Positions 1 to 7,316 of a stretch of DNA of 7,316 nucleotides are shown piece after piece. Each line of letters opens with the position of its first letter. Position 1 is the stretch's first letter. The notes beneath the pieces are model-generated. The model had not been told where the DNA came from and did not search any database. It saw only the letters and a list, made by a program, of their open reading frames with translations. A program made the translations under genes and the position numbers. The DNA is taken from IMG/VR virus record IMGVR_UViG_2684622618_000023; one strand, written 5' to 3'. Source of the DNA: a virus. Lineage: Duplodnaviria; Heunggongvirae; Uroviricota; Caudoviricetes.

Positions 1-59
1 TTTGAACCAGCGACCTGGCGATTATGAGTCGCTCGCTCTCACCACTGAGCTAAAGGGCC
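1..59 (-). tRNA. tRNA with CAU anticodon (tRNA-Ile2/ileX-like, or elongator Met), 3' part truncated by the left window edge
   Basis: Reverse complement of 1-59 reads GGCCCTT-TA-GCTC-AGTGGTGA-GAGC-G-AGCGA-CTCATAA-TCGCC-AGGTC-GCTGG-TTCAAA: acceptor 5' strand, D arm, anticodon arm with loop CU-CAU-AA, variable loop, T-stem 5' strand and start of the T-loop, then the window ends. The anticodon arm and T-stem closely resemble E. coli tRNA-Ile2 (ileX type) as I remember it; identity cannot be fixed without the missing 3' acceptor strand. Confidence 0.8.
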
Positions 60-198: not shown

Positions 199-645
199 TC
201 AAAAAGCAATAACTTTTTNNNNNNNNNNNNNNNNNNNNNNNNNNNNNNNNNNNNNNNNNNNNNNNNNNTAACGCTGACTCAGAACATTGAGCAGCCCGGG
301 ATAACCTGCCAGTACTTCACCAATAACCCTGTCGATTATTAACGCCTCTGAATCGGTACAATGCACCAGCCAGCTTTTTTGCTTGCCGTTGATCATATCC
401 CGCAAAAAAGCCTCAAGTTTAGGTTTGTCCAGACCTGCTTTTTTCATCCTCCGGAGCGCCTCGTTAATTGCCGTTTTTGTCAGCTTTTTAGAGGTCAGCA
501 ACTGGTTGAACATATTTCCCGTCTTACCGCCGCCAATATACGACCAGCGCCCCCACATACGTAGTTTCCCCTGAATCCAGACACTTTCCAGCGTGGTGAG
601 ACGAAGGTGCTCTCCGCTTTTTCCTGTGTTCGTTGGGTAAATCAT
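199..645 (-). CDS. Putative lambdoid late-gene antiterminator (Q-like) protein; 3' end uncertain because the frame runs through the N-run
   Basis: ATG at 645-643 overlaps the TGA stop of the upstream YbcO-like gene (ATGA), with AAAGGA about 10 nt upstream. About 125 codons of clean, protein-like sequence (MIYPTNTGKSGEHLRL...GYPGLLNVLSQR) before the N-run. The Q assignment is mainly positional (last gene before terminator and tRNA, after nin genes). The 40 codons upstream of this ATG in the supplied 199..765 ORF are Arg-rich, lie inside the neighbouring gene and are unlikely to be translated. The stop at 199-201 is only valid if the gap length is exact. Confidence 0.45.
   Translation of the reverse strand: MIYPTNTGKSGEHLRLTTLESVWIQGKLRMWGRWSYIGGGKTGNMFNQLLTSKKLTKTAINEALRRMKKAGLDKPKLEAFLRDMINGKQKSWLVHCTDSEALIIDRVIGEVLAGYPGLLNVLSQRXXXXXXXXXXXXXXXXXXKVIAF
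219..268. other. Run of 50 N (assembly gap or masked bases) inside the 3' part of the Q-like gene
   Basis: Literal n characters at 219-268. Confidence 0.97.
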
Positions 646-1531: not shown

Positions 1532-1950
1532 TTCTCAATCTCTCGATGGCGCAGTGCAGCAGATGCCAGTTGTTCAAGCTAGCACGCAAATTGTAAACCA
1601 GAATGCCAGGAAAAAACAAAACCCGCCGAAGCTGGTTGTGTGCGGTTGCGTTGAAGTCTCCTAGCCAAAGAGTAGCGGTGACCACTCCCCGCCGATAATC
1701 TTAGTTGTTTAATTTCGTAAGCTAACTAGGCTAAAAGCTCTCTGTTGTCTGCCTGTTGTACAATTAACAAAATGAACAACGAACTAGATATACCAACGCC
1801 AGAATGGTGCAACAAATCCCAAACAACACAGCAATGCAACAATAACATATGTTATTTTCCTCTCACGGGATTCAGTCCTGAATTCTCATAAAGCTAATCT
1901 TTTTTTAAAAACATACTGTTAGATCACATGCACTTTCTTTCTTAACATCG

Positions 1951-1978
1951 TTGACTTCGCATGCGAAGCGTTTAAAAT
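1951..1978 (+). promoter_or_regulatory. Candidate sigma70 promoter for the GHKL operon
   Basis: TTGACT at 1951-1956, 16-nt spacer, TAAAAT at 1973-1978; predicted start near 1985, about 45 nt upstream of ATG 2031; AT-rich upstream region. Pattern match only. Confidence 0.4.
1955..1968. promoter_or_regulatory. Perfect 14-bp palindrome CTTCGCATGCGAAG overlapping the -35/spacer of the candidate GHKL promoter (possible operator)
   Basis: cttcgcatgcgaag at 1955-1968 is identical to its reverse complement. The palindrome itself is certain; a regulatory role is inferred from its position. Confidence 0.5.
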
Positions 1979-2030
1979 CAACAATTTGCACTTAAGGTAT
2001 TTATTTTCCCAAACACATAGAGAGTAAATT

Positions 2031-3422
2031 ATGACTGAGAACACGACTCCAACAGCAGACTTTAGTCCTAGTAAAAGATTTTTTGTAAGTATGCTAACTC
2101 GAGATATCGACTTAAACGATGCCATACTTGATCTGCTTGATAACTGCGTCGATGGGGCTTTACGTACAATAAAAGACACAAAAAAAACTTCAAAACCATA
2201 TGAAGGATTTTATGCGAAACTTACGATTAATAAAGATGTCTTTATTATAGAAGACAATTGCGGAGGTATCCCTAAAAGCTTCCGAGAATATGCTTTTAAA
2301 ATGGGACGACCCCATCAAAAAGAAGAAGAAAATGAAGGCACCGTTGGCGTCTATGGTATTGGTATGAAAAGAGCCATTTTTAAAATGGGTAGAGATTGCT
2401 CAATACAATCGAATAATCCCGATGGCGCATTCACTGTAGATATAACACCTGATTGGATCGATGGTGATGGTTGGAAAATACCGATGCACGAGAGTGACTA
2501 TGATAACAAAAATCCAACAGGCACAACTATAGAGATAAAAAAACTCCATTCTAATGTGGCACAAAAATTTAATGAGAGCACATATCTTACTGATCTCTTT
2601 TTACAGATAAAACACTCATTGTCATTTATTATTCAAAAAGGATTTAAAATAGAATTAAATGGAGTTGTTGTTGAACATAATCCGATTAACATCATAACTG
2701 ATCATTCTAAAATAGAACCATACATATATAAAGCTAAAATAGACGATGTTGATATCGATTTAGTTGTTGGCTTCTATAAAAATTTAGAAGATGACAATGA
2801 TGATGTTTTAGAAAAAAGGAGTTCTGATGATGCTGGATGGACTGTCATTTGCAATGACCGCGTTGTTCTATATTGTGATAAGACACATCTCACAGGTTGG
2901 GGCTTTGCTAATGTACCAAGGTTTCATACCCAATTTATAGCAATTTCTGGGGTTGTTCGCTTTACCAGTAAAAACCCAGAAAAATTACCAATAACAACAA
3001 CGAAACGAGGTGTCGATCTTAGTTCTACATTGTACAATGATGTACGAAATAAAATGATTGAAGGGATGATGCATTTTATTCGATTCACCAATCAGTGGAA
3101 AGGTGAGCATCTTGAAGAAGGGAAAAAATTACTTAAGTCAGCTCAGTCACATGAAGCTCAATCTTTATTTGAAATTACCCCACAATCAACTCCAGAAGAT
3201 AAAAAAAATAACTGGTCCAACCCTAATAGAAACAAAAATGAGTGGCGATATACACCTAAGCTGCCTACCCCAGTAAAAAAAAGCTCTACTGTACGAATAA
3301 TCTTCACCAGAGAGAAAGAAGATGTTAAAATTTTATCTAAATATTTCTTTGGACATGAAGATGCTAGCGCTTCTGATGTGGGGATGCAATGCTTTGATAC
3401 GGTGATTGAAGAGGTGAAGTGA
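2031..3422 (+). CDS. GHKL-superfamily (Bergerat-fold, MORC/MutL-like HATPase_c) ATPase, 463 aa
   Basis: ATG 2031 with AGAGAG upstream. N-terminal motifs in the canonical order: N-box DLLDNCVDGA (nt about 2130-2159), G1 box IEDNCGG (D at 2253), G2 box GVYGIGMKRA (MORC-like GxYGxGxK), motif IV PTGTTIEI. The remaining ~260 aa are of unassigned function (possibly an S5-like transducer); no HNH, PD-(D/E)xK or PLD motif was evident by eye. Confidence 0.85.
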   Translation: MTENTTPTADFSPSKRFFVSMLTRDIDLNDAILDLLDNCVDGALRTIKDTKKTSKPYEGFYAKLTINKDVFIIEDNCGGIPKSFREYAFKMGRPHQKEEENEGTVGVYGIGMKRAIFKMGRDCSIQSNNPDGAFTVDITPDWIDGDGWKIPMHESDYDNKNPTGTTIEIKKLHSNVAQKFNESTYLTDLFLQIKHSLSFIIQKGFKIELNGVVVEHNPINIITDHSKIEPYIYKAKIDDVDIDLVVGFYKNLEDDNDDVLEKRSSDDAGWTVICNDRVVLYCDKTHLTGWGFANVPRFHTQFIAISGVVRFTSKNPEKLPITTTKRGVDLSSTLYNDVRNKMIEGMMHFIRFTNQWKGEHLEEGKKLLKSAQSHEAQSLFEITPQSTPEDKKNNWSNPNRNKNEWRYTPKLPTPVKKSSTVRIIFTREKEDVKILSKYFFGHEDASASDVGMQCFDTVIEEVK

Positions 3423-4411
3423 TGTCTGGACAATACATTCCCTATCACTTAAGGCATAATAAGTCTATTGATAGAGAGATTTTTCTCGAAAGCCTAAACC
3501 TCTTAAGCAAAAGACTAAATATTCAAGAATATACATATATAGGTTTTGGTGGTCCGATGCTTGAAGATTTTAGAATCATGCATAATCGTATCGCTCTTTC
3601 TGATATGATTTCTCTCGAAGAACAAGAGTCTACTCACATCAGACAAAAATATAATTTGCCTTATAATTGTATTGATTGTAAGCTAATATCAGCTCATGAC
3701 TTTATTCTTGATTATAGTTTTTCTAAACCATCAATAACATGGTTAGACTATGCCTCCCCGAAAAAAATACAAACGGATCTAGATGATATACACTTACTAA
3801 GTACTAAAGTAAGCTCTTTTGATATTTTGAAGGTCACCTTCCCCATAAATCCTAGTTCTTATTACCAACGTAGAGTTGGAGAAAGTTTAGATATTTTTAA
3901 AGAAGCTTTTATTAATTCATTAAAATCATTGCTTGGGAAAAAGTATCTTGATTTTAATCTTCAGATATCAAATGCAGATCTTTCAGATCGTAAGATTAAA
4001 GCTCTTTTAATACGAATTATTACAAACGCTTTTAGATCAGCAATAGAACGTGGTCTTTCAGGACGTAAGGATAAGATTCAGTATTACCCATTATCCTTAA
4101 ATCAATATAATGATGGCAGTCATACCATGTTGACAATATCAGGTTTTTTCTCCTCAGAACAAGAATATATAGAGTTATCTAAGGCATGCGACCTTTCTAA
4201 CTGGCAATTTTATTCAACAAATTGGGAAGACGTGCAAGAAATAGCAATACCAACACTAACAATTAAAGAAAAGATAAATTTAGATAGTAAACTGCCTGAT
4301 AAAGAAGCATATCAGGCAGCCGCTGAAGAGTTCTCTTTAAACGAAAATGAACGGGATAACTATTATAAATACTATAGGTTATACCCTAACTTCCAAAGAA
4401 TTATGGTTTAA
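3422..4411 (+). CDS. Hypothetical protein (~329 aa), co-operonic partner of the GHKL ATPase; no recognisable family
   Basis: ATG 3422-3424 shares its A with the TGA stop (3420-3422) of the GHKL gene; GAGG at 3411-3414 gives 7-nt spacing. The supplied ORF begins 3 nt earlier at GTG 3419, which has poorer spacing. Ends TAA 4409-4411. Same AT-rich composition and codon usage as the GHKL gene. No catalytic motif could be assigned with confidence; weak D-x-K candidates such as IDCK are not persuasive. Confidence 0.8.
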   Translation: MSGQYIPYHLRHNKSIDREIFLESLNLLSKRLNIQEYTYIGFGGPMLEDFRIMHNRIALSDMISLEEQESTHIRQKYNLPYNCIDCKLISAHDFILDYSFSKPSITWLDYASPKKIQTDLDDIHLLSTKVSSFDILKVTFPINPSSYYQRRVGESLDIFKEAFINSLKSLLGKKYLDFNLQISNADLSDRKIKALLIRIITNAFRSAIERGLSGRKDKIQYYPLSLNQYNDGSHTMLTISGFFSSEQEYIELSKACDLSNWQFYSTNWEDVQEIAIPTLTIKEKINLDSKLPDKEAYQAAAEEFSLNENERDNYYKYYRLYPNFQRIMV

Positions 4412-5530
4412 ATATTCGGGCTGTACTCTTTTATTTAATAAATTGTACAGCCCCTTTAATATATATTCAGCAACTATTGGTGACACGCTATTTCCTATTT
4501 GTCTGAAACTATGCCATTTAGTTACATGAAAGCGAAACCAATCAGGGAAGCCTTGTAATCTAGCAGCTTCTCTTGGTGTAATCACTCTTGGATGATAAGG
4601 GTGGATCGGCCTGACGGCTTGAAAGCTTCCTTTATCTCTAGCGGTTCCCGCCCTTAAAGTCGGGCAAAAACCATTTGGATCTAATCTTGTAGATCTTGAA
4701 ATTTTATCAGTTTCCCCAAAAGATAAGGAAGCATAACGCTCTTGGACGATTTTGCTATGTAATGTTCCGGTACATCCAGATATGATATTATTTTTTAACT
4801 TAGCGATCGATTCTGTATCACCAACATTCCGAGGGATCTGCCCCCATAATTTTTCATAAAATCCCCCTTTTCGATCTTTTTTAATTGTTCGCCAACTCTC
4901 AGAGTCTGATTGCCAATTGGCATCGATAATATCTGGTAATCCATACAAAGCATCTTTTACAGTAACCGGATCAATCATTTTAGGCATAAATACTTCATCT
5001 GAAATATCAAGCTTCAATGATTTTTTTACACCGATAAAAAAATATCTAGTTCGAATAGTTGGAGCACCATAATCAGATGCTTTTACCTTGATGGGATCAA
5101 GAATATCATAATCACCGCTAACCAAATTAAATGCTTTATTTCTAATGCCAGAATATTTCTCTTGCATAATACCTGGAACATTTTCTGCCAAAAAGAATAA
5201 TGGCTGTAATTCTGATACTAAACGGTAGAAATGCATGTAAAGCTGATTCCTGCTATCATCAGGATTCCCCTTGCCTATTGAACTAAATCCTTGGCACGGA
5301 GGACCGCCAATAATACCATCTATGGGCATATCGTTTTTAAAAAAACCCTTAATTATTTCTGCATTTAGTAAAGAAACATCTTCTTGGACGTGCAAACTTC
5401 TTGGAAAATTAATTGCGTGAGTATTAATAGCATGTTGATCAATTTCAACTGCCATTTTAACATCAAATCCAGCACGTGCAGCACCAAGACTTAGACCTCC
5501 AACGCCAGAAAACAAATCTATTACATTCAT
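4379..5530 (-). CDS. DNA (cytosine-5)-methyltransferase, Dcm/M.HhaI-type, 383 aa
   Basis: Canonical C5-MTase motifs in order: motif I DLFSGVGG at the N-terminus (AdoMet binding), motif IV GGPPCQGFS (catalytic Cys codon at 5294-5296), motif VI ENVPG, an RTRYF region (motif VIII-like), and C-terminal GNSVSP (motif X). Start ATG 5530-5528; stop TAA 4381-4379. Confidence 0.9.
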   Translation of the reverse strand: MNVIDLFSGVGGLSLGAARAGFDVKMAVEIDQHAINTHAINFPRSLHVQEDVSLLNAEIIKGFFKNDMPIDGIIGGPPCQGFSSIGKGNPDDSRNQLYMHFYRLVSELQPLFFLAENVPGIMQEKYSGIRNKAFNLVSGDYDILDPIKVKASDYGAPTIRTRYFFIGVKKSLKLDISDEVFMPKMIDPVTVKDALYGLPDIIDANWQSDSESWRTIKKDRKGGFYEKLWGQIPRNVGDTESIAKLKNNIISGCTGTLHSKIVQERYASLSFGETDKISRSTRLDPNGFCPTLRAGTARDKGSFQAVRPIHPYHPRVITPREAARLQGFPDWFRFHVTKWHSFRQIGNSVSPIVAEYILKGLYNLLNKRVQPEYLNHNSLEVRV

Positions 5531-5562
5531 ATAGTTGCAACGTCTCTTATTAGTTTCTATGT

Positions 5563-5571
5563 ATTATAACA
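5563..5571 (-). promoter_or_regulatory. Candidate extended -10 promoter (TGtTATAAT) for the methyltransferase gene
   Basis: Minus strand reads TGTTATAAT (plus 5563-5571). It lies about 33 nt upstream of ATG 5530 with TAAGAGA between as a weak ribosome-binding site. No good -35, which is acceptable for an extended -10. Pattern match only. Confidence 0.4.
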
Positions 5572-5792
5572 CAACTGTTCTTGATGTTTTAACCCCATAA
5601 GATAACCTCATAAAGGCTATCCCTTGAAAATACCGGATCGCATAAATTTAATCTTTCAAAACTACTTGTCTATTAATCGAGCAATTTAAGGTTGTTTTAG
5701 TCATGTCGATACCGACATAGTTAACTAAACCCATTTCATCGTCCAACAAATGGGGGTAATACACTTTGATTTATAGTCGGGTGGGTTTTTCT

Positions 5793-5828
5793 CTATCTGC
5801 CTTTGGTGTTCATGCCCAAGGCAGATAG
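5793..5828. repeat. Inverted repeat, 11-bp arms (CTATCTGCCTT / AAGGCAGATAG) around a 14-nt spacer, in the non-coding region upstream of the MTase
   Basis: ctatctgcctt at 5793-5803 and aaggcagatag at 5818-5828 are exact reverse complements. No adjacent U-run on either strand, so not a classical intrinsic terminator. Confidence 0.6.
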
Positions 5829-5961
5829 CCTCAAGCACCCGCAGCAATTCTACTTAACTATCCTTTTCCCGCAAATCGTTTTTATCCCCAGCGGCAAATC
5901 GAATACACAACCAGCGCCACCGCCATCGCAATTCCTACCGTTGTGAATGCTTCAGGCCAGG

Positions 5962-6447
5962 TCATCGTGAAACATCCTCCACGCTTATAAGTCCGCTTCG
6001 CTCCAGGTAGTCCATCACTTTATCCGGCAATTTGCAGCCCGGTTTCGCTTTCTTCAGTTGACTAACCAATTGTTTAACCAGCATTGTCAATTCGCGAACT
6101 TGTTTCCCGGGCTCCCCTTTGCCCTGAAGCAGGGCAGCGCGGCAAGCGTTCCATCCCTCAGCATATGTTTCAGTTACACCATCGAGATGGCATGTAAGCA
6201 AATCCATTTCTTCCGGCACTACGGGCGCTGGAAAAACGGCATAGGGTGGCGTCCATTTTGGCGCTTTATCTCCAGCCGAACGCTGCTACCAGTCATCCGG
6301 TTTGTATTCATAAAAATCACCAACTGGCTCTGCTTCCAGCGATGCCAGCGCAATCCGTGCCAGTTCCATTTGTTCACCACGGGTAAGCCCGTTTTCAACC
6401 GGATTTTTAATGAACAATTCAATACGTTCTTTGGTAATAGTGGTCAT
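5962..6447 (-). pseudogene. Phage hypothetical gene with a single in-frame TAG (6288-6286); an intact reading would be about 161 aa. Alternatively two adjacent small ORFs
   Basis: Strong start: AAGGAG 6 nt upstream of ATG 6447-6445, giving MTTITKERIELFIKNPVENGLTRGEQMELARIALASLEAEPVGDFYEYKPDDW, then TAG. The same frame continues protein-like (QRSAGDKAPKW...EEMDLLTCHLDG...SGLISVEDVSR) to TGA at 5962. The downstream part has no convincing ribosome-binding site of its own (GTG 6219 or ATG 6207). Confidence 0.4.
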
Positions 6448-6457
6448 GTGTTACTCC

Positions 6458-6721
6458 TTAACCCGCAGTGCTTTCAACTGATGAGGGGAACAAAATCTTT
6501 TCATCAAACCCTGCATTCATATCATGAACAGCAACACACCAATCCATCGACGAACGATTATCAAGAGCCTCCATGATTTCATCCATGCGGCGTAGGTCAT
6601 ACAGGTAAATGCTTTTATCGCCAATGGTGTAAAAGCCAATTTTTTTCGGTGATGGACAGCGATCAAGAACTTCCTGTAATTCGTTCAACCATGCCCGTTC
6701 TTTTTTTGTCAAAGTTGCCAT
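6458..6721 (-). CDS. Hypothetical small phage protein, 87 aa
   Basis: ATG 6721-6719 preceded by AAGGA; 2 nt downstream of the previous gene's TGA. Its TAA stop (6460-6458) sits inside the ribosome-binding site of the next gene. Protein-like composition (MATLTKKERAWLNELQEVLDRCPSPKK...). Confidence 0.65.
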   Translation of the reverse strand: MATLTKKERAWLNELQEVLDRCPSPKKIGFYTIGDKSIYLYDLRRMDEIMEALDNRSSMDWCVAVHDMNAGFDEKILFPSSVESTAG

Positions 6722-6722
6722 A

Positions 6723-6941
6723 TCAGTTTTCCTTATACGGATTAATTTTATTGTGCAGTGCGCTGAATGATTCCCATGTCACATCGGTATATAGCTCAAT
6801 AACTGGTTCAAATGTCCTTCCAATTATCCAGACCAGTAATAGCGGGGATATCGGTATCATCAACACTATAAACAGAATGAAAAACAGAAACTCTGTTGTT
6901 CTGCTCTTTCGTGGGTAATTTTTTTCTAAATAATGTTTCAT
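6723..6941 (-). CDS. Small predicted single-pass membrane protein, 72 aa
   Basis: ATG 6941-6939; a hydrophobic stretch FLFFILFIVLMIPISPLLLVWIIG consistent with one transmembrane helix; tight packing with the downstream gene. Confidence 0.6.
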   Translation of the reverse strand: MKHYLEKNYPRKSRTTEFLFFILFIVLMIPISPLLLVWIIGRTFEPVIELYTDVTWESFSALHNKINPYKEN

Positions 6942-6947
6942 TTCTTA

Positions 6948-6963
6948 CCGCCCTTTCGGGCGG
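6948..6963 (-). promoter_or_regulatory. Stable GC hairpin with a GAAA tetraloop between an AGGAGG element and the start codon of the 72-aa gene
   Basis: Minus strand reads CAGGAGG-CCGCCC-GAAA-GGGCGG-TAAGAA-ATG: perfect 6-bp GC stem with a GNRA-type loop ending 6 nt before the ATG. Confidence 0.5.
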
Positions 6964-7068
6964 CCTCCTGATGTTCTGAGGGTGCAGGAATCCCTCCGGT
7001 TAAGGATTTAATAAAAATCGTTTCTGATTTAAATCTTCAGTATTTAGTTGTTAGTTGGTTTATCGCCT

Positions 7069-7316
7069 TTATGCTTCAGCCTTATTTCGCAACCAGACAC
7101 AAACCGGGCCATCTTCCGTATCATGAATGGAACCAATAAACCAGCCATCGCCCTCTGGTCGTTCCGGTTCCCATGCAGAAATATCAGCATCACACGCATC
7201 AAGGTCAGCACATCCTTCATCTCTGAAGCAGAGGACGTATTGAAGATTATTTTCCTCCATCCAGGCGTTAAACTCTTCCGTTGAAATATATTCCCGACCA
7301 TCACAGAATTTTTCAT
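7069..7316 (-). CDS. 3' part of a gene for a strongly acidic protein; 5' end lies beyond the right window edge
   Basis: The frame is open from the window edge to TAA at 7071-7069 (...EKFCDGREYISTEEFNAWMEENNLQYVLCFRDEGCADLDACDADISAWEPERPEGDGWFIGSIHDTEDGPVCVWLRNKAEA). About 25% Asp+Glu in the last 63 residues. The internal ATG at 7260 lacks a well-spaced ribosome-binding site, so the gene probably starts outside the window. Confidence 0.55.
   Translation of the reverse strand, partial: EKFCDGREYISTEEFNAWMEENNLQYVLCFRDEGCADLDACDADISAWEPERPEGDGWFIGSIHDTEDGPVCVWLRNKAEA

What the first reader, a model, noticed from the sequence alone, without database searches (positions are those of the whole stretch)
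4379..5530. Complete Dcm-type C5-cytosine methyltransferase carried as prophage cargo
All the hallmark C5-MTase motifs are present (DLFSGVGG, GGPPCQGFS, ENV, GNSV) in a 383-aa single-domain enzyme. It is co-directional with the phage early/nin genes and has its own candidate extended -10 promoter. Either way it would alter the host methylome and could sensitise the lysogen to methylcytosine-dependent Type IV restriction of its own DNA if moved to another host. Target specificity is not readable from the sequence.
Basis: partly seen in the sequence, partly recalled or inferred. Interest (0 to 1): 0.5.

Follow-up and report, generated by a model that had tools for sequence, protein, structure and literature searches.

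The report
Prophage cytosine methylase with two partners
The gene is a real, intact DNA cytosine-5 methyltransferase whose crystal structure is already in the PDB, but it is not a lone cargo gene: it is the methylase of a widespread, untested three-gene cassette (MORC-like ATPase, second methyltransferase-fold protein, methylase) that sits in phage defence hotspots and probably works like a restriction-modification system.

Summary

It is one gene of a low-GC cassette (about 1946-5592). The other two genes are a MORC-like GHKL+S5 ATPase (2031-3422, +) and a translationally coupled class I methyltransferase-fold protein, Pfam PF20553 (3422-4411, +), whose 3' end overlaps the MTase gene.

The trio is never split in 172 complete E. 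coli genomes. It recurs from Leptospira to prophages of unrelated bacteria, often with a Vsr gene. It occupies the P2 gpA-gpQ defence hotspot in about 50 other E. coli genomes. On a Microvirga plasmid all four genes are interleaved with a complete DISARM operon.

Neither partner matches PADLOC or any nuclease fold, and no experimental paper was found.

Best reading (about 0.55): a restriction-modification-like defence in which 5mC marks self DNA and the ATPase/PF20553 pair acts on unmarked DNA by an unknown mechanism that may not involve a nuclease. The target sequence remains unknown.

The parts
1946..5592 (.). Mobile three-gene cassette, low GC (0.30-0.39 against about 0.50 in the flanks)
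   Evidence: blastn against the homologous cassette in a different phage background (L028) matches only window 1946-5592. The composition profile shows the GC drop. Window 1900-5700, which contains the cassette, is at least 99% identical in 173 of 5426 complete E. coli genomes, always chromosomal.
1951..1978 (+). Promoter-like site upstream of the ATPase gene (TTGACT-16-TAAAAT, 10 of 12)
   Evidence: Consensus scan. The -35 (TTGACA in L028) and the -10 (TAAAAT) are conserved in L028 although the surrounding DNA diverges. Function is not shown.
2031..3422 (+). [not shown]
3422..4411 (+). [not shown]
4418..4453 (+). Stable hairpin 7 nt after the PF20553 stop codon, inside the 3' coding tail of the MTase; a candidate terminator for the + strand operon
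   Evidence: Inverted repeat I15. RNA fold -17.2 kcal/mol, z = -3.6. Function is inferred.
4379..5530 (-). [not shown]
   Evidence: Its 3' end overlaps the PF20553 gene by 33 nt (4379-4411).
5563..5592 (-). Promoter-like site with extended -10 upstream of the MTase (TTAAAA-18-TG-n-TATAAT)
   Evidence: L028 has TTCAAA / TG-n-TAGAAT at the same place. Function is not shown.

Best explanation
The ORF is an intact, very probably active C5 DNA cytosine methyltransferase. It serves as the modification (self-marking) component of a three-gene, restriction-modification-like cassette carried as a moron by a lambdoid prophage.

Shown: the MTase has every catalytic motif and a solved structure. It is physically and evolutionarily locked to two partner genes, a MORC-like GHKL+S5 ATPase and a translationally coupled class I methyltransferase-fold protein (PF20553). 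The module moves between phage defence hotspots and is found fused into a DISARM operon.

Inferred: the MTase methylates a fixed short target in host and prophage DNA. The ATPase/PF20553 pair uses ATP, and probably SAM, to recognise the same sites when they are unmethylated on incoming DNA, and blocks that DNA. Neither partner has a recognisable nuclease. The block would therefore need a Vsr-family nuclease (encoded next to the ATPase in many non-enterobacterial versions), a host nuclease, or a mechanism without a nuclease, as proposed for BREX.

The gene layout also fits this reading. The MTase runs with the phage early genes and the other two genes run against them. Prophage induction would then raise methylation without raising the interference genes.
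For: MTase integrity and identity.

Linkage in E. coli: the MTase and the partner pair are each found at >=99% identity and >=80% coverage in the same number of complete E. coli genomes, 172. The single natural deletion (F6294) removed the MTase together with two-thirds of the PF20553 gene.

Conservation across phyla: ATPase->PF20553 are always adjacent and overlapping, and a C5-MTase of the same subfamily is adjacent in 14 of 16 distinct loci in the first profile-annotated set. Later loci are consistent with this: L032, L035, L037 and L041 carry all three genes, L036 is decayed, and L039 and L040 are too short to tell. Divergence of the three proteins is correlated (rho 0.38-0.73).

A real 5mC producer: Vsr (the T:G repair nuclease) lies next to the module in at least 9 loci. 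The MTase TRD aligns across the whole subfamily.

Defence context: a divergent copy sits in the P2 gpA-gpQ hotspot and is listed about 10-11 times in the P2 hotspot table of PMC9122126. Other copies sit beside a P4-like integrase with Abi_2 and an HNH/ScoMcrA gene, beside Type I HsdR, beside HipAB and an SF1-helicase/PLD gene, and between repressor and integrase of another prophage. All four genes are interleaved with DrmD, DrmMI, DrmA, DrmB and DrmC on a Microvirga plasmid.

Fold evidence: MORC-like ATPase and Rossmann MTase fold.

General precedent: GHKL 'paraMORC' ATPases linked to Dcm and Vsr genes in predicted R-M operons (PMC2292703).

The cassette carries its own conserved promoter candidates on both strands.
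Confidence: 0.55

Rival explanations
1. A solitary (orphan) phage methyltransferase. The MTase alone is the functional unit, protecting phage DNA from host restriction or reprogramming the host methylome, and the two + strand genes are unrelated neighbours.
For: Many phages carry orphan C5-MTases (phrog_116 match). The gene has its own promoter candidate and runs with the phage early genes.
Against: The same two neighbours accompany the same MTase subfamily in distant phyla and in unrelated genomic slots. No E. coli genome has the MTase without them. The 3' ends of the genes overlap.
Confidence: 0.06
2. A self-contained 'methylate and repair' epigenetic module rather than a defence system. The MTase makes 5mC. 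The MutL/MORC-like ATPase, together with Vsr where present (or the host Vsr in E. coli), repairs the T:G mismatches caused by 5mC deamination, as MutL stimulates Vsr in E. coli. The PF20553 protein is an accessory factor.
Against: This does not explain why the module is mobile, why it sits in the P2 defence hotspot and other defence or toxin-antitoxin neighbourhoods, or why it is built into a DISARM operon. It gives no role to a conserved SAM-fold enzyme. The enterobacterial versions dispense with Vsr altogether.
Confidence: 0.15
3. An abortive-infection or toxin-type system. The PF20553 protein is an RNA (or protein) methyltransferase effector that arrests the cell when the ATPase senses infection. 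DNA methylation by the C5-MTase only sets the sensor's self/non-self reference, or acts as the antidote.
For: The closest folds to PF20553 are rRNA and tRNA methyltransferases (RsmD-like, Trm1, RlmI). SAM-site-like residues are conserved. There is no nuclease. PF20553 is the fastest-evolving of the three proteins. Toxin-antitoxin genes neighbour several loci.
Against: The fold matches have only 8-14% identity and are generic for class I MTases, so the substrate class cannot be inferred. No methyltransferase toxin precedent was found with these tools.
Confidence: 0.12
4. Two-step DNA hypermodification. The C5-MTase makes 5mC and the PF20553 enzyme adds a second methyl group to the same or a neighbouring base, with the ATPase as a loader, giving phage DNA a compound mark that evades host restriction.
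For: Two SAM-fold enzymes sit in one cassette. The cassette is carried by phages.
Against: The module is just as common in non-phage chromosomal sites and in a DISARM operon. Vsr linkage points to plain 5mC. A hypermodification pathway would be expected to run with the phage replication genes, but the PF20553 and ATPase genes run against them.
Confidence: 0.05

Closest known systems
Type II C5 DNA methyltransferases such as M.HaeIII and M.HhaI (Pfam PF00145)
   Same: Same fold and all conserved motifs. M.HaeIII is the best solved relative apart from 3G7U itself (E 1.5e-34, residues 1-200). The best PADLOC match is a Type II MTase model (E 2e-98).
   Different: The target recognition domain (about residues 176-310) aligns only within its own subfamily, so the target is unknown. 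Motif VIII reads T-x-R-x-R rather than Q-x-R-x-R. No recognisable restriction endonuclease is encoded nearby.
E. coli Dcm / Vsr (EcoKDcm, CCWGG)
   Same: Same chemistry (5mC). Non-enterobacterial versions of the module carry a Vsr gene, as dcm does.
   Different: Not an ortholog: NF007772 scores 35.7 bits against a cut-off of 710. It is prophage-borne, present in only about 3% of complete E. coli genomes, and the E. coli cassette has no Vsr.
MORC / paraMORC GHKL ATPases of predicted R-M operons (Iyer, Abhiman & Aravind 2008, PMC2292703)
   Same: GHKL plus S5 module that structurally resembles MORC3, MORC2 and SMCHD1 more than MutL. Linked to a Dcm-type methylase and often to a Vsr-family gene, as that paper describes.
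   Different: The neighbourhood has no superfamily II helicase and no RE-fold, HNH or TIR nuclease. The obligate partner is instead a class I methyltransferase-fold protein (PF20553), which the sections of that paper I read or searched do not mention. I could not assign the ATPase to one of paraMORC1-5. None of these systems, this one included, has been tested experimentally as far as I could find.
DISARM (DrmA/DrmB/DrmC with DrmMI or DrmMII)
   Same: Methylation-based self/non-self defence. On Microvirga plasmid pR24_2 the ATPase-PF20553 pair and a Dcm-Vsr pair are interleaved with DrmD, DrmMI, DrmA, DrmB and DrmC in a single operon.
   Different: The window cassette has no DrmA, DrmB or DrmC. 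The MTase matches DrmMII models much less well than Type II models (4e-47 against 2e-98).
BREX (analogy only; from my own knowledge)
   Same: A methyltransferase-centred defence that blocks unmethylated phage DNA without an identified nuclease and involves an ATPase.
   Different: No homology to BREX components was detected. Here the self-marking MTase and the second MTase-fold protein are separate proteins.

Membership tests
C5 DNA cytosine methyltransferase (PF00145 / TIGR00675) | Profile score above the curated cut-offs | tested here: met
   PF00145 208.3 bits against 22; TIGR00675 156.9 against 100.65.
C5 DNA cytosine methyltransferase (PF00145 / TIGR00675) | Catalytic motifs: I (FxGxG), IV (PCQ with the nucleophilic Cys), VI (ENV), VIII (RxR), IX, X (GNS) | tested here: met
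   DLFSGVGG 5-12, GGPPCQGFS 75-83 (Cys79), ENV 116-118, TIRTR 158-162, RLQGFPD 324, GNSV 346. All are invariant across 14 subfamily members. Identical to the crystallised protein 3G7U.
C5 DNA cytosine methyltransferase (PF00145 / TIGR00675) | Demonstrated 5mC formation at a defined target sequence | not testable with these tools
   Needs a methylome or enzyme assay. Indirect support comes from adjacent Vsr genes in relatives.
E. coli Dcm ortholog (NF007772) | Subfamily profile score above the cut-off | tested here: not met
   35.7 bits against 710, and only the C-terminal 56 residues match.
Solitary (orphan) phage methyltransferase | No conserved, functionally linked neighbouring genes | tested here: not met
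   The ATPase and PF20553 partners are conserved next to this MTase subfamily in at least 17 distinct loci across phyla and are never separated from it in E. coli.
Classical Type II restriction-modification system | A recognisable restriction endonuclease gene next to the MTase | tested here: not met
   No nuclease family or fold in either partner.
Classical Type II restriction-modification system | MTase and partner genes inherited as an inseparable unit; loss of M accompanied by loss of R | tested here: met
   The MTase and the partner pair are each found in 172 genomes. The one deletion that removes M also truncates the PF20553 gene (n = 1).
MORC / paraMORC GHKL ATPase of R-M-like operons | N-terminal GHKL domain with ATP-binding motifs I-IV followed by an S5-fold transducer domain | tested here: met
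   [not shown]
MORC / paraMORC GHKL ATPase of R-M-like operons | Gene-neighbourhood link to DNA methylase, with or without Vsr | tested here: met
MORC / paraMORC GHKL ATPase of R-M-like operons | Linked superfamily II helicase and/or RE-fold, HNH or TIR nuclease (the usual context in PMC2292703) | tested here: not met
   Absent from the window and from most loci. The exceptions are the DISARM-embedded copy and neighbouring but unconserved genes.
Class I SAM-dependent methyltransferase (for the PF20553 partner) | Rossmann-type seven-strand fold with a Gly-rich loop after beta1, an acidic residue at the end of beta2 and a conserved residue at the end of beta4 | tested here: met
   [not shown]
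Class I SAM-dependent methyltransferase (for the PF20553 partner) | SAM binding, methyl transfer and substrate identity (the label 'O-methyltransferase') | not testable with these tools
   The database name is a prediction. Nothing here shows O-methylation. The nearest folds are N- and C-methylating RNA enzymes at 8-14% identity.
DISARM | Presence of DrmA, DrmB (DUF1998) and DrmC | tested here: not met
   None is in the window. They are present only in the Microvirga relative.
Any system in PADLOC-DB v2.0.0 | Profile match of the partner proteins | tested here: not met
   Zero families for either partner at E <= 0.01.

The most novel reading that the evidence does not exclude
The MORC-like ATPase and the PF20553 methyltransferase-fold protein form a new kind of interference module that has no nuclease of its own and reads C5-methylation status. 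It would be a bacterial counterpart, and possibly a forerunner, of the eukaryotic link between MORC ATPases and DNA methylation. It can work with a lone C5-MTase, as in the O157:H7 Sp10 prophage, or plug into DISARM. If so, Sp10/CP-933R carries an uncharacterised anti-phage or anti-plasmid system present in more than 1,000 protein clusters across bacteria.
Probability: 0.35. Interest if true: 0.72.

Novelty: new variant of a known kind. Interest (0 to 1): 0.45.

Why it matters
The methyltransferase itself adds little: it is annotated, crystallised and typical. What matters is its context. A three-gene module that is widespread (2,215 PF20553 clusters at 50% identity) sits in the best-validated phage defence hotspots of E. 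coli. It is absent from the PADLOC defence catalogue, and the only mention found in searchable papers is an unnamed entry in a supplementary table.

It is carried by a prophage specific to lineage I O157:H7 and by O111 and other STEC strains, so it could shape which phages (including Stx phages) and plasmids these pathogens accept.

Mechanistically it pairs a MORC-type ATPase with DNA methylation but has no nuclease. This makes an old prediction (Iyer et al. 2008) directly testable in E. coli, and it bears on how MORC proteins came to be tied to DNA methylation in eukaryotes.

Tried and rejected
1. Target specificity. I searched with the TRD alone (residues 171-316) against 5.8 billion proteins. 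Only unnamed subfamily members and fragments came back, with no characterised enzyme. PDB relatives align only to the catalytic core. The target stays unknown.

2. Literature. No functional study of the trio turned up. The 'Kinase-methylase' and HEF_HK systems (PMC8011034 and PMC9122126 file 7) belong to a different GHKL family.

4. Sequenced phages. There is no match in 50,697 phage records.

5. Insertion scars and RNAs. No convincing flanking direct repeats. No Rfam family in the cassette.

6. L004 appeared to lack the MTase, but the ORF is present and intact; it was only missing from the gene index. L015 shows all three genes split, but it is a long-read MAG, so the frameshifts may be sequencing errors, and I do not count it.

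7. The genome-contig scan with the PF20553 alignment returned only 5 loci because of its pattern step. AFDB50 Foldseek was unavailable. BFVD gave only generic MTase folds.

8. I considered a hidden nuclease in the ATPase C-terminal domain or in PF20553. No PD-(D/E)xK, HNH, GIY-YIG or PLD signal appeared in any profile or fold search, so I do not claim one.
Full report
OBSERVATION

The window has an ATG-to-stop ORF of 383 aa at 4379..5530 on the minus strand. It matches the C5 cytosine methylase family over its whole length: PF00145 at E 2.6e-61 and 208 bits against a cut-off of 22, and TIGR00675 at 156.9 bits against 100.65. These are DLFSGVGG at residue 5, GGPPCQGFS at 75 (nucleophile Cys79), ENV at 116 and GNSV at 346. 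Motif II (AVEID, 27), the RxR of motif VIII (TIRTR, 158-162) and motif IX (RLQGFPD, 324) are also there.

THE GENE IS ALREADY KNOWN

- Residues 1-366 are identical to chain A of PDB 3G7U, deposited as a cytosine-specific methyltransferase.
- The same DNA (window 1900-5700) is at least 99% identical in 173 of 5426 complete E. coli genomes. It is always chromosomal and always single-copy, and RefSeq annotates it as 'DNA cytosine methyltransferase'.
- It is not an ortholog of the host Dcm: NF007772 scores 35.7 bits against a cut-off of 710.

CONTEXT IN THE WINDOW

The flanking genes are nin-region genes of a Rac-like lambdoid prophage, all on the minus strand. DUF1367 (932-1531), YbcO (642-932) and a DUF1133/Q-like gene (199-765) lie downstream. 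Small phage ORFs lie upstream.

- 2031-3422 encodes a 463-aa protein with an N-terminal HATPase_c_3 domain.
- 3422-4411 encodes a 329-aa protein of Pfam family PF20553 (Methyltransf_35, 'putative O-methyltransferase'; E 2e-89).
- The stop codon of the first gene and the ATG of the second overlap (TGATG).
- The 3' ends of the second gene and the MTase gene overlap by 33 nt.

The three genes form a block of 30-39% GC in flanks of about 50% GC. A homologous cassette in an unrelated phage background (L028, 79% DNA identity) matches the window only from 1946 to 5592. That span begins and ends at the -35 elements of two promoter-like sites, one on each strand (1951-1978 on +, 5592-5563 on -). The hexamers of both sites are largely conserved in L028. 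Its activity is untested, and such matches are not enriched over shuffled sequence. A stable hairpin (4418-4453; -17.2 kcal/mol, z = -3.6) follows the PF20553 stop codon.

WHAT THE PARTNERS ARE

The ATPase:
- The GHKL motifs are invariant in 31 homologs. An invariant Asp34 sits where the catalytic Glu of the ExxxNxxD motif normally is (the motif assignment rests on general knowledge of the GHKL family).
- The last ~130 residues are helical and match nothing.

The PF20553 protein:
- An exhaustive profile search finds 2,215 clusters at 50% identity, 1,194 of them at E <= 1e-30. Nearly all are stand-alone proteins of 320-345 aa.
- Over 146 representatives (median 32% identity), the residues conserved in 94-100% sit where a class I MTase binds SAM and its substrate. 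These are G44 and D50 after beta1, E67 at the end of beta2, and W108-L-D110-Y111 at the end of beta4. There is also a basic cluster (R12, K15, R19, R75).
- I therefore think it binds SAM. The database label 'O-methyltransferase' is only a prediction.

Neither partner matches any PADLOC model, any NCBIfam model of note or any PDB sequence. Neither shows a nuclease fold.

THE THREE GENES ARE ONE UNIT

- In complete E. coli genomes, the MTase and the partner pair are each present at >=99% identity and >=80% coverage in 172 genomes.
- In the one exception, O157:H7 F6294, a deletion removed the whole MTase gene together with the C-terminal two-thirds of the PF20553 gene.
- Neighbourhoods of distant homologs tell the same story. 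I looked at Leptospira, Yersinia prophages (same nin slot), Methylomonas, Azoarcus, Smithella and Spirochaetales MAGs, a Gemmatimonadetes MAG, marine metagenomes, a further uncharacterised genome assembly (GCA_014646895.1, L041) and viral contigs. ATPase->PF20553 are always adjacent, on the same strand and usually overlapping. A C5-MTase of the same subfamily (E 1e-88 to 1e-175 against the window protein) is adjacent in 14 of the 16 distinct loci of the first annotated set. It is either convergent, as here, or co-directional upstream. Loci fetched later agree.
- Divergence of the three proteins is correlated across 13 loci (Spearman 0.38-0.73). The locus pairs are not independent, so this is only supportive. 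The MTase evolves slowest and PF20553 fastest.
- The MTase TRD (176-310) aligns throughout the subfamily at about the same identity as the N-terminal catalytic core. That is unusual for C5-MTases with different targets and suggests a shared or similar target.
- A Vsr gene is adjacent in at least nine loci. Where it is, it usually sits in the ATPase operon rather than with the MTase.
- Exceptions: a Scytonema locus has no MTase within the fetched flanks, and a Sinorhizobium pSymA locus is broken by an insertion.

EVIDENCE FOR A DEFENCE ROLE

- About 50 further E. coli genomes carry a divergent copy of the trio (66-70% DNA identity) in P2-type prophages, between the portal gene and replication gene A. 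Rousset et al. showed this cos-proximal gpA-gpQ region to be a hotspot of anti-phage systems (PMC9122126). [quoted passage not shown] They did not name or test them.
- Other copies lie in several other settings:
  - next to a P4-type integrase with Abi_2 and an HNH/ScoMcrA gene;
  - next to Type I HsdR;
  - next to HipAB or an SF1-helicase/PLD protein;
  - next to a FitA/PIN pair;
  - between the repressor and integrase of another prophage.
- The most telling case is Microvirga terrae plasmid pR24_2. One operon reads C5-MTase, Vsr, DrmD, MmeI-like MTase (DrmMI), ATPase, PF20553, DrmA, DUF1998 (DrmB), DrmC. That is a complete class 1 DISARM system with all four module genes interleaved. The ATPase (E 1.8e-146) and PF20553 (E 7.9e-58) members belong to the same families as the window proteins.

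HOW IT MOST LIKELY WORKS

Shown:
- an intact C5-MTase with a solved structure;
- obligate linkage to a MORC-like ATPase and a SAM-fold protein;
- mobility between defence hotspots;
- Vsr linkage, which implies that real 5mC is made.

Inferred:
- the MTase marks a fixed target on resident DNA;
- the ATPase/PF20553 pair recognises the same sites when unmethylated and blocks the incoming DNA, using ATP and probably SAM;
- since neither protein is a recognisable nuclease, the damaging step must come from Vsr (where encoded), from a host nuclease, or from a nuclease-free mechanism as in BREX.

This fits the general prediction of Iyer, Abhiman and Aravind (PMC2292703) that MORC and paraMORC ATPases act in R-M systems with Dcm and Vsr genes. 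It differs in lacking the helicase and nuclease partners they describe and in having PF20553 instead.

I give this reading about 0.55. The rivals are:
- a methylate-and-repair module in which the ATPase helps Vsr as MutL does (0.15);
- an abortive-infection system in which PF20553 methylates RNA (0.12);
- an orphan MTase with unrelated neighbours (0.06);
- two-step hypermodification (0.05).

WEAK POINTS

- Nothing has been tested experimentally.
- The target sequence could not be inferred.
- I could not check REBASE or the newest defence catalogues.

VERDICT

As written, the finding (an intact C5-MTase in a prophage) is correct, ordinary and already known. The useful result of the second look is that the MTase is the modification component of a widespread, catalogued but uncharacterised three-gene module involving a MORC-like ATPase. 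I rate it a new variant of a known kind, with moderate interest (0.45). The most novel reading not excluded is a methylation-reading MORC-type interference module that has no nuclease of its own and also plugs into DISARM (probability about 0.35, interest 0.72 if true).

Noticed in passing
L035 (Microvirga terrae plasmid pR24_2, NZ_CP102847.1 82000-106000), locus 6745-24001, minus strand: A single operon encodes C5-MTase, Vsr, DrmD, MmeI-like MTase, GHKL ATPase, PF20553 protein, DrmA, DUF1998 (DrmB) and DrmC. This is a complete class 1 DISARM system with the four module genes interleaved. An Abi family gene lies a few kb away.
   Followed up: partly
L032 (E. coli WCHEC96200, NZ_CP022229.3) 4531-8046: A divergent copy of the same trio (45%, 38% and 63% protein identity) occupies the P2 prophage gpA-gpQ hotspot. 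About 50 complete E. coli genomes carry it. The adjacent replication gene A is annotated as truncated.
   Followed up: partly
L033 (E. coli O157:H7 F6294) 6523-7026: A natural deletion removed the whole MTase gene and the C-terminal two-thirds of the PF20553 gene and left the ATPase gene intact. It is the only one of 173 genomes in which the cassette is incomplete.
   Followed up: yes
window 2130-2153 (ATPase residues 34-41): An invariant Asp (D34) sits where GHKL ATPases normally have the catalytic Glu of motif I (ExxxNxxD). It is conserved in all 31 aligned homologs, which may mean slow, switch-like ATP turnover.
   Followed up: partly
window 1-59, minus strand: A partial tRNA at the window edge (Rfam RF00005, 41.8 bits, cut at its 3' end). 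It corresponds to the prophage tRNA-Ile/tRNA-Arg pair annotated downstream of the Q-like gene in O157:H7 PA20.
   Followed up: partly
window 219-268: A run of 50 N (masked bases) inside the DUF1133/Q-like antiterminator gene, so that gene's translation contains X residues.
   Followed up: no
window 5962-6219 and 6286-6447, minus strand: Two short ORFs match the C-terminal (130-192) and N-terminal (3-60) parts of one PHROG family (phrog_660, 193 positions). They look like the two halves of a phage gene that has been split or has lost its middle.
   Followed up: no
window 5793-5828: A 14-nt inverted repeat (93% complementary, 8-nt spacer) in the roughly 370-bp non-coding stretch between the right edge of the cassette (5592) and the next phage ORF. 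It overlaps a terminator-like call on the + strand.
   Followed up: no
window 6723-6941, minus strand: The DUF4014 ORF is intact here (72 aa, full-length Pfam match), whereas RefSeq flags the corresponding gene in O157:H7 PA20 as frameshifted.
   Followed up: no
[not shown]
   Followed up: partly
L036 (Sinorhizobium meliloti pSymA, NZ_CP021824.1) 4599-15011: All four module genes are present, but about 2.9 kb containing a 563-aa ORF separates the ATPase gene from an N-terminally truncated PF20553 gene. It appears to be a decayed copy.
   Followed up: no
L016 (Nevskia MAG) 5639-7180: A single 513-aa ORF matches the ATPase profile and, at its C-terminus, the last ~55 residues of PF20553. It is either a deletion-fusion remnant or a true fusion. 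The contig ends about 1 kb downstream and no MTase was seen.
   Followed up: no
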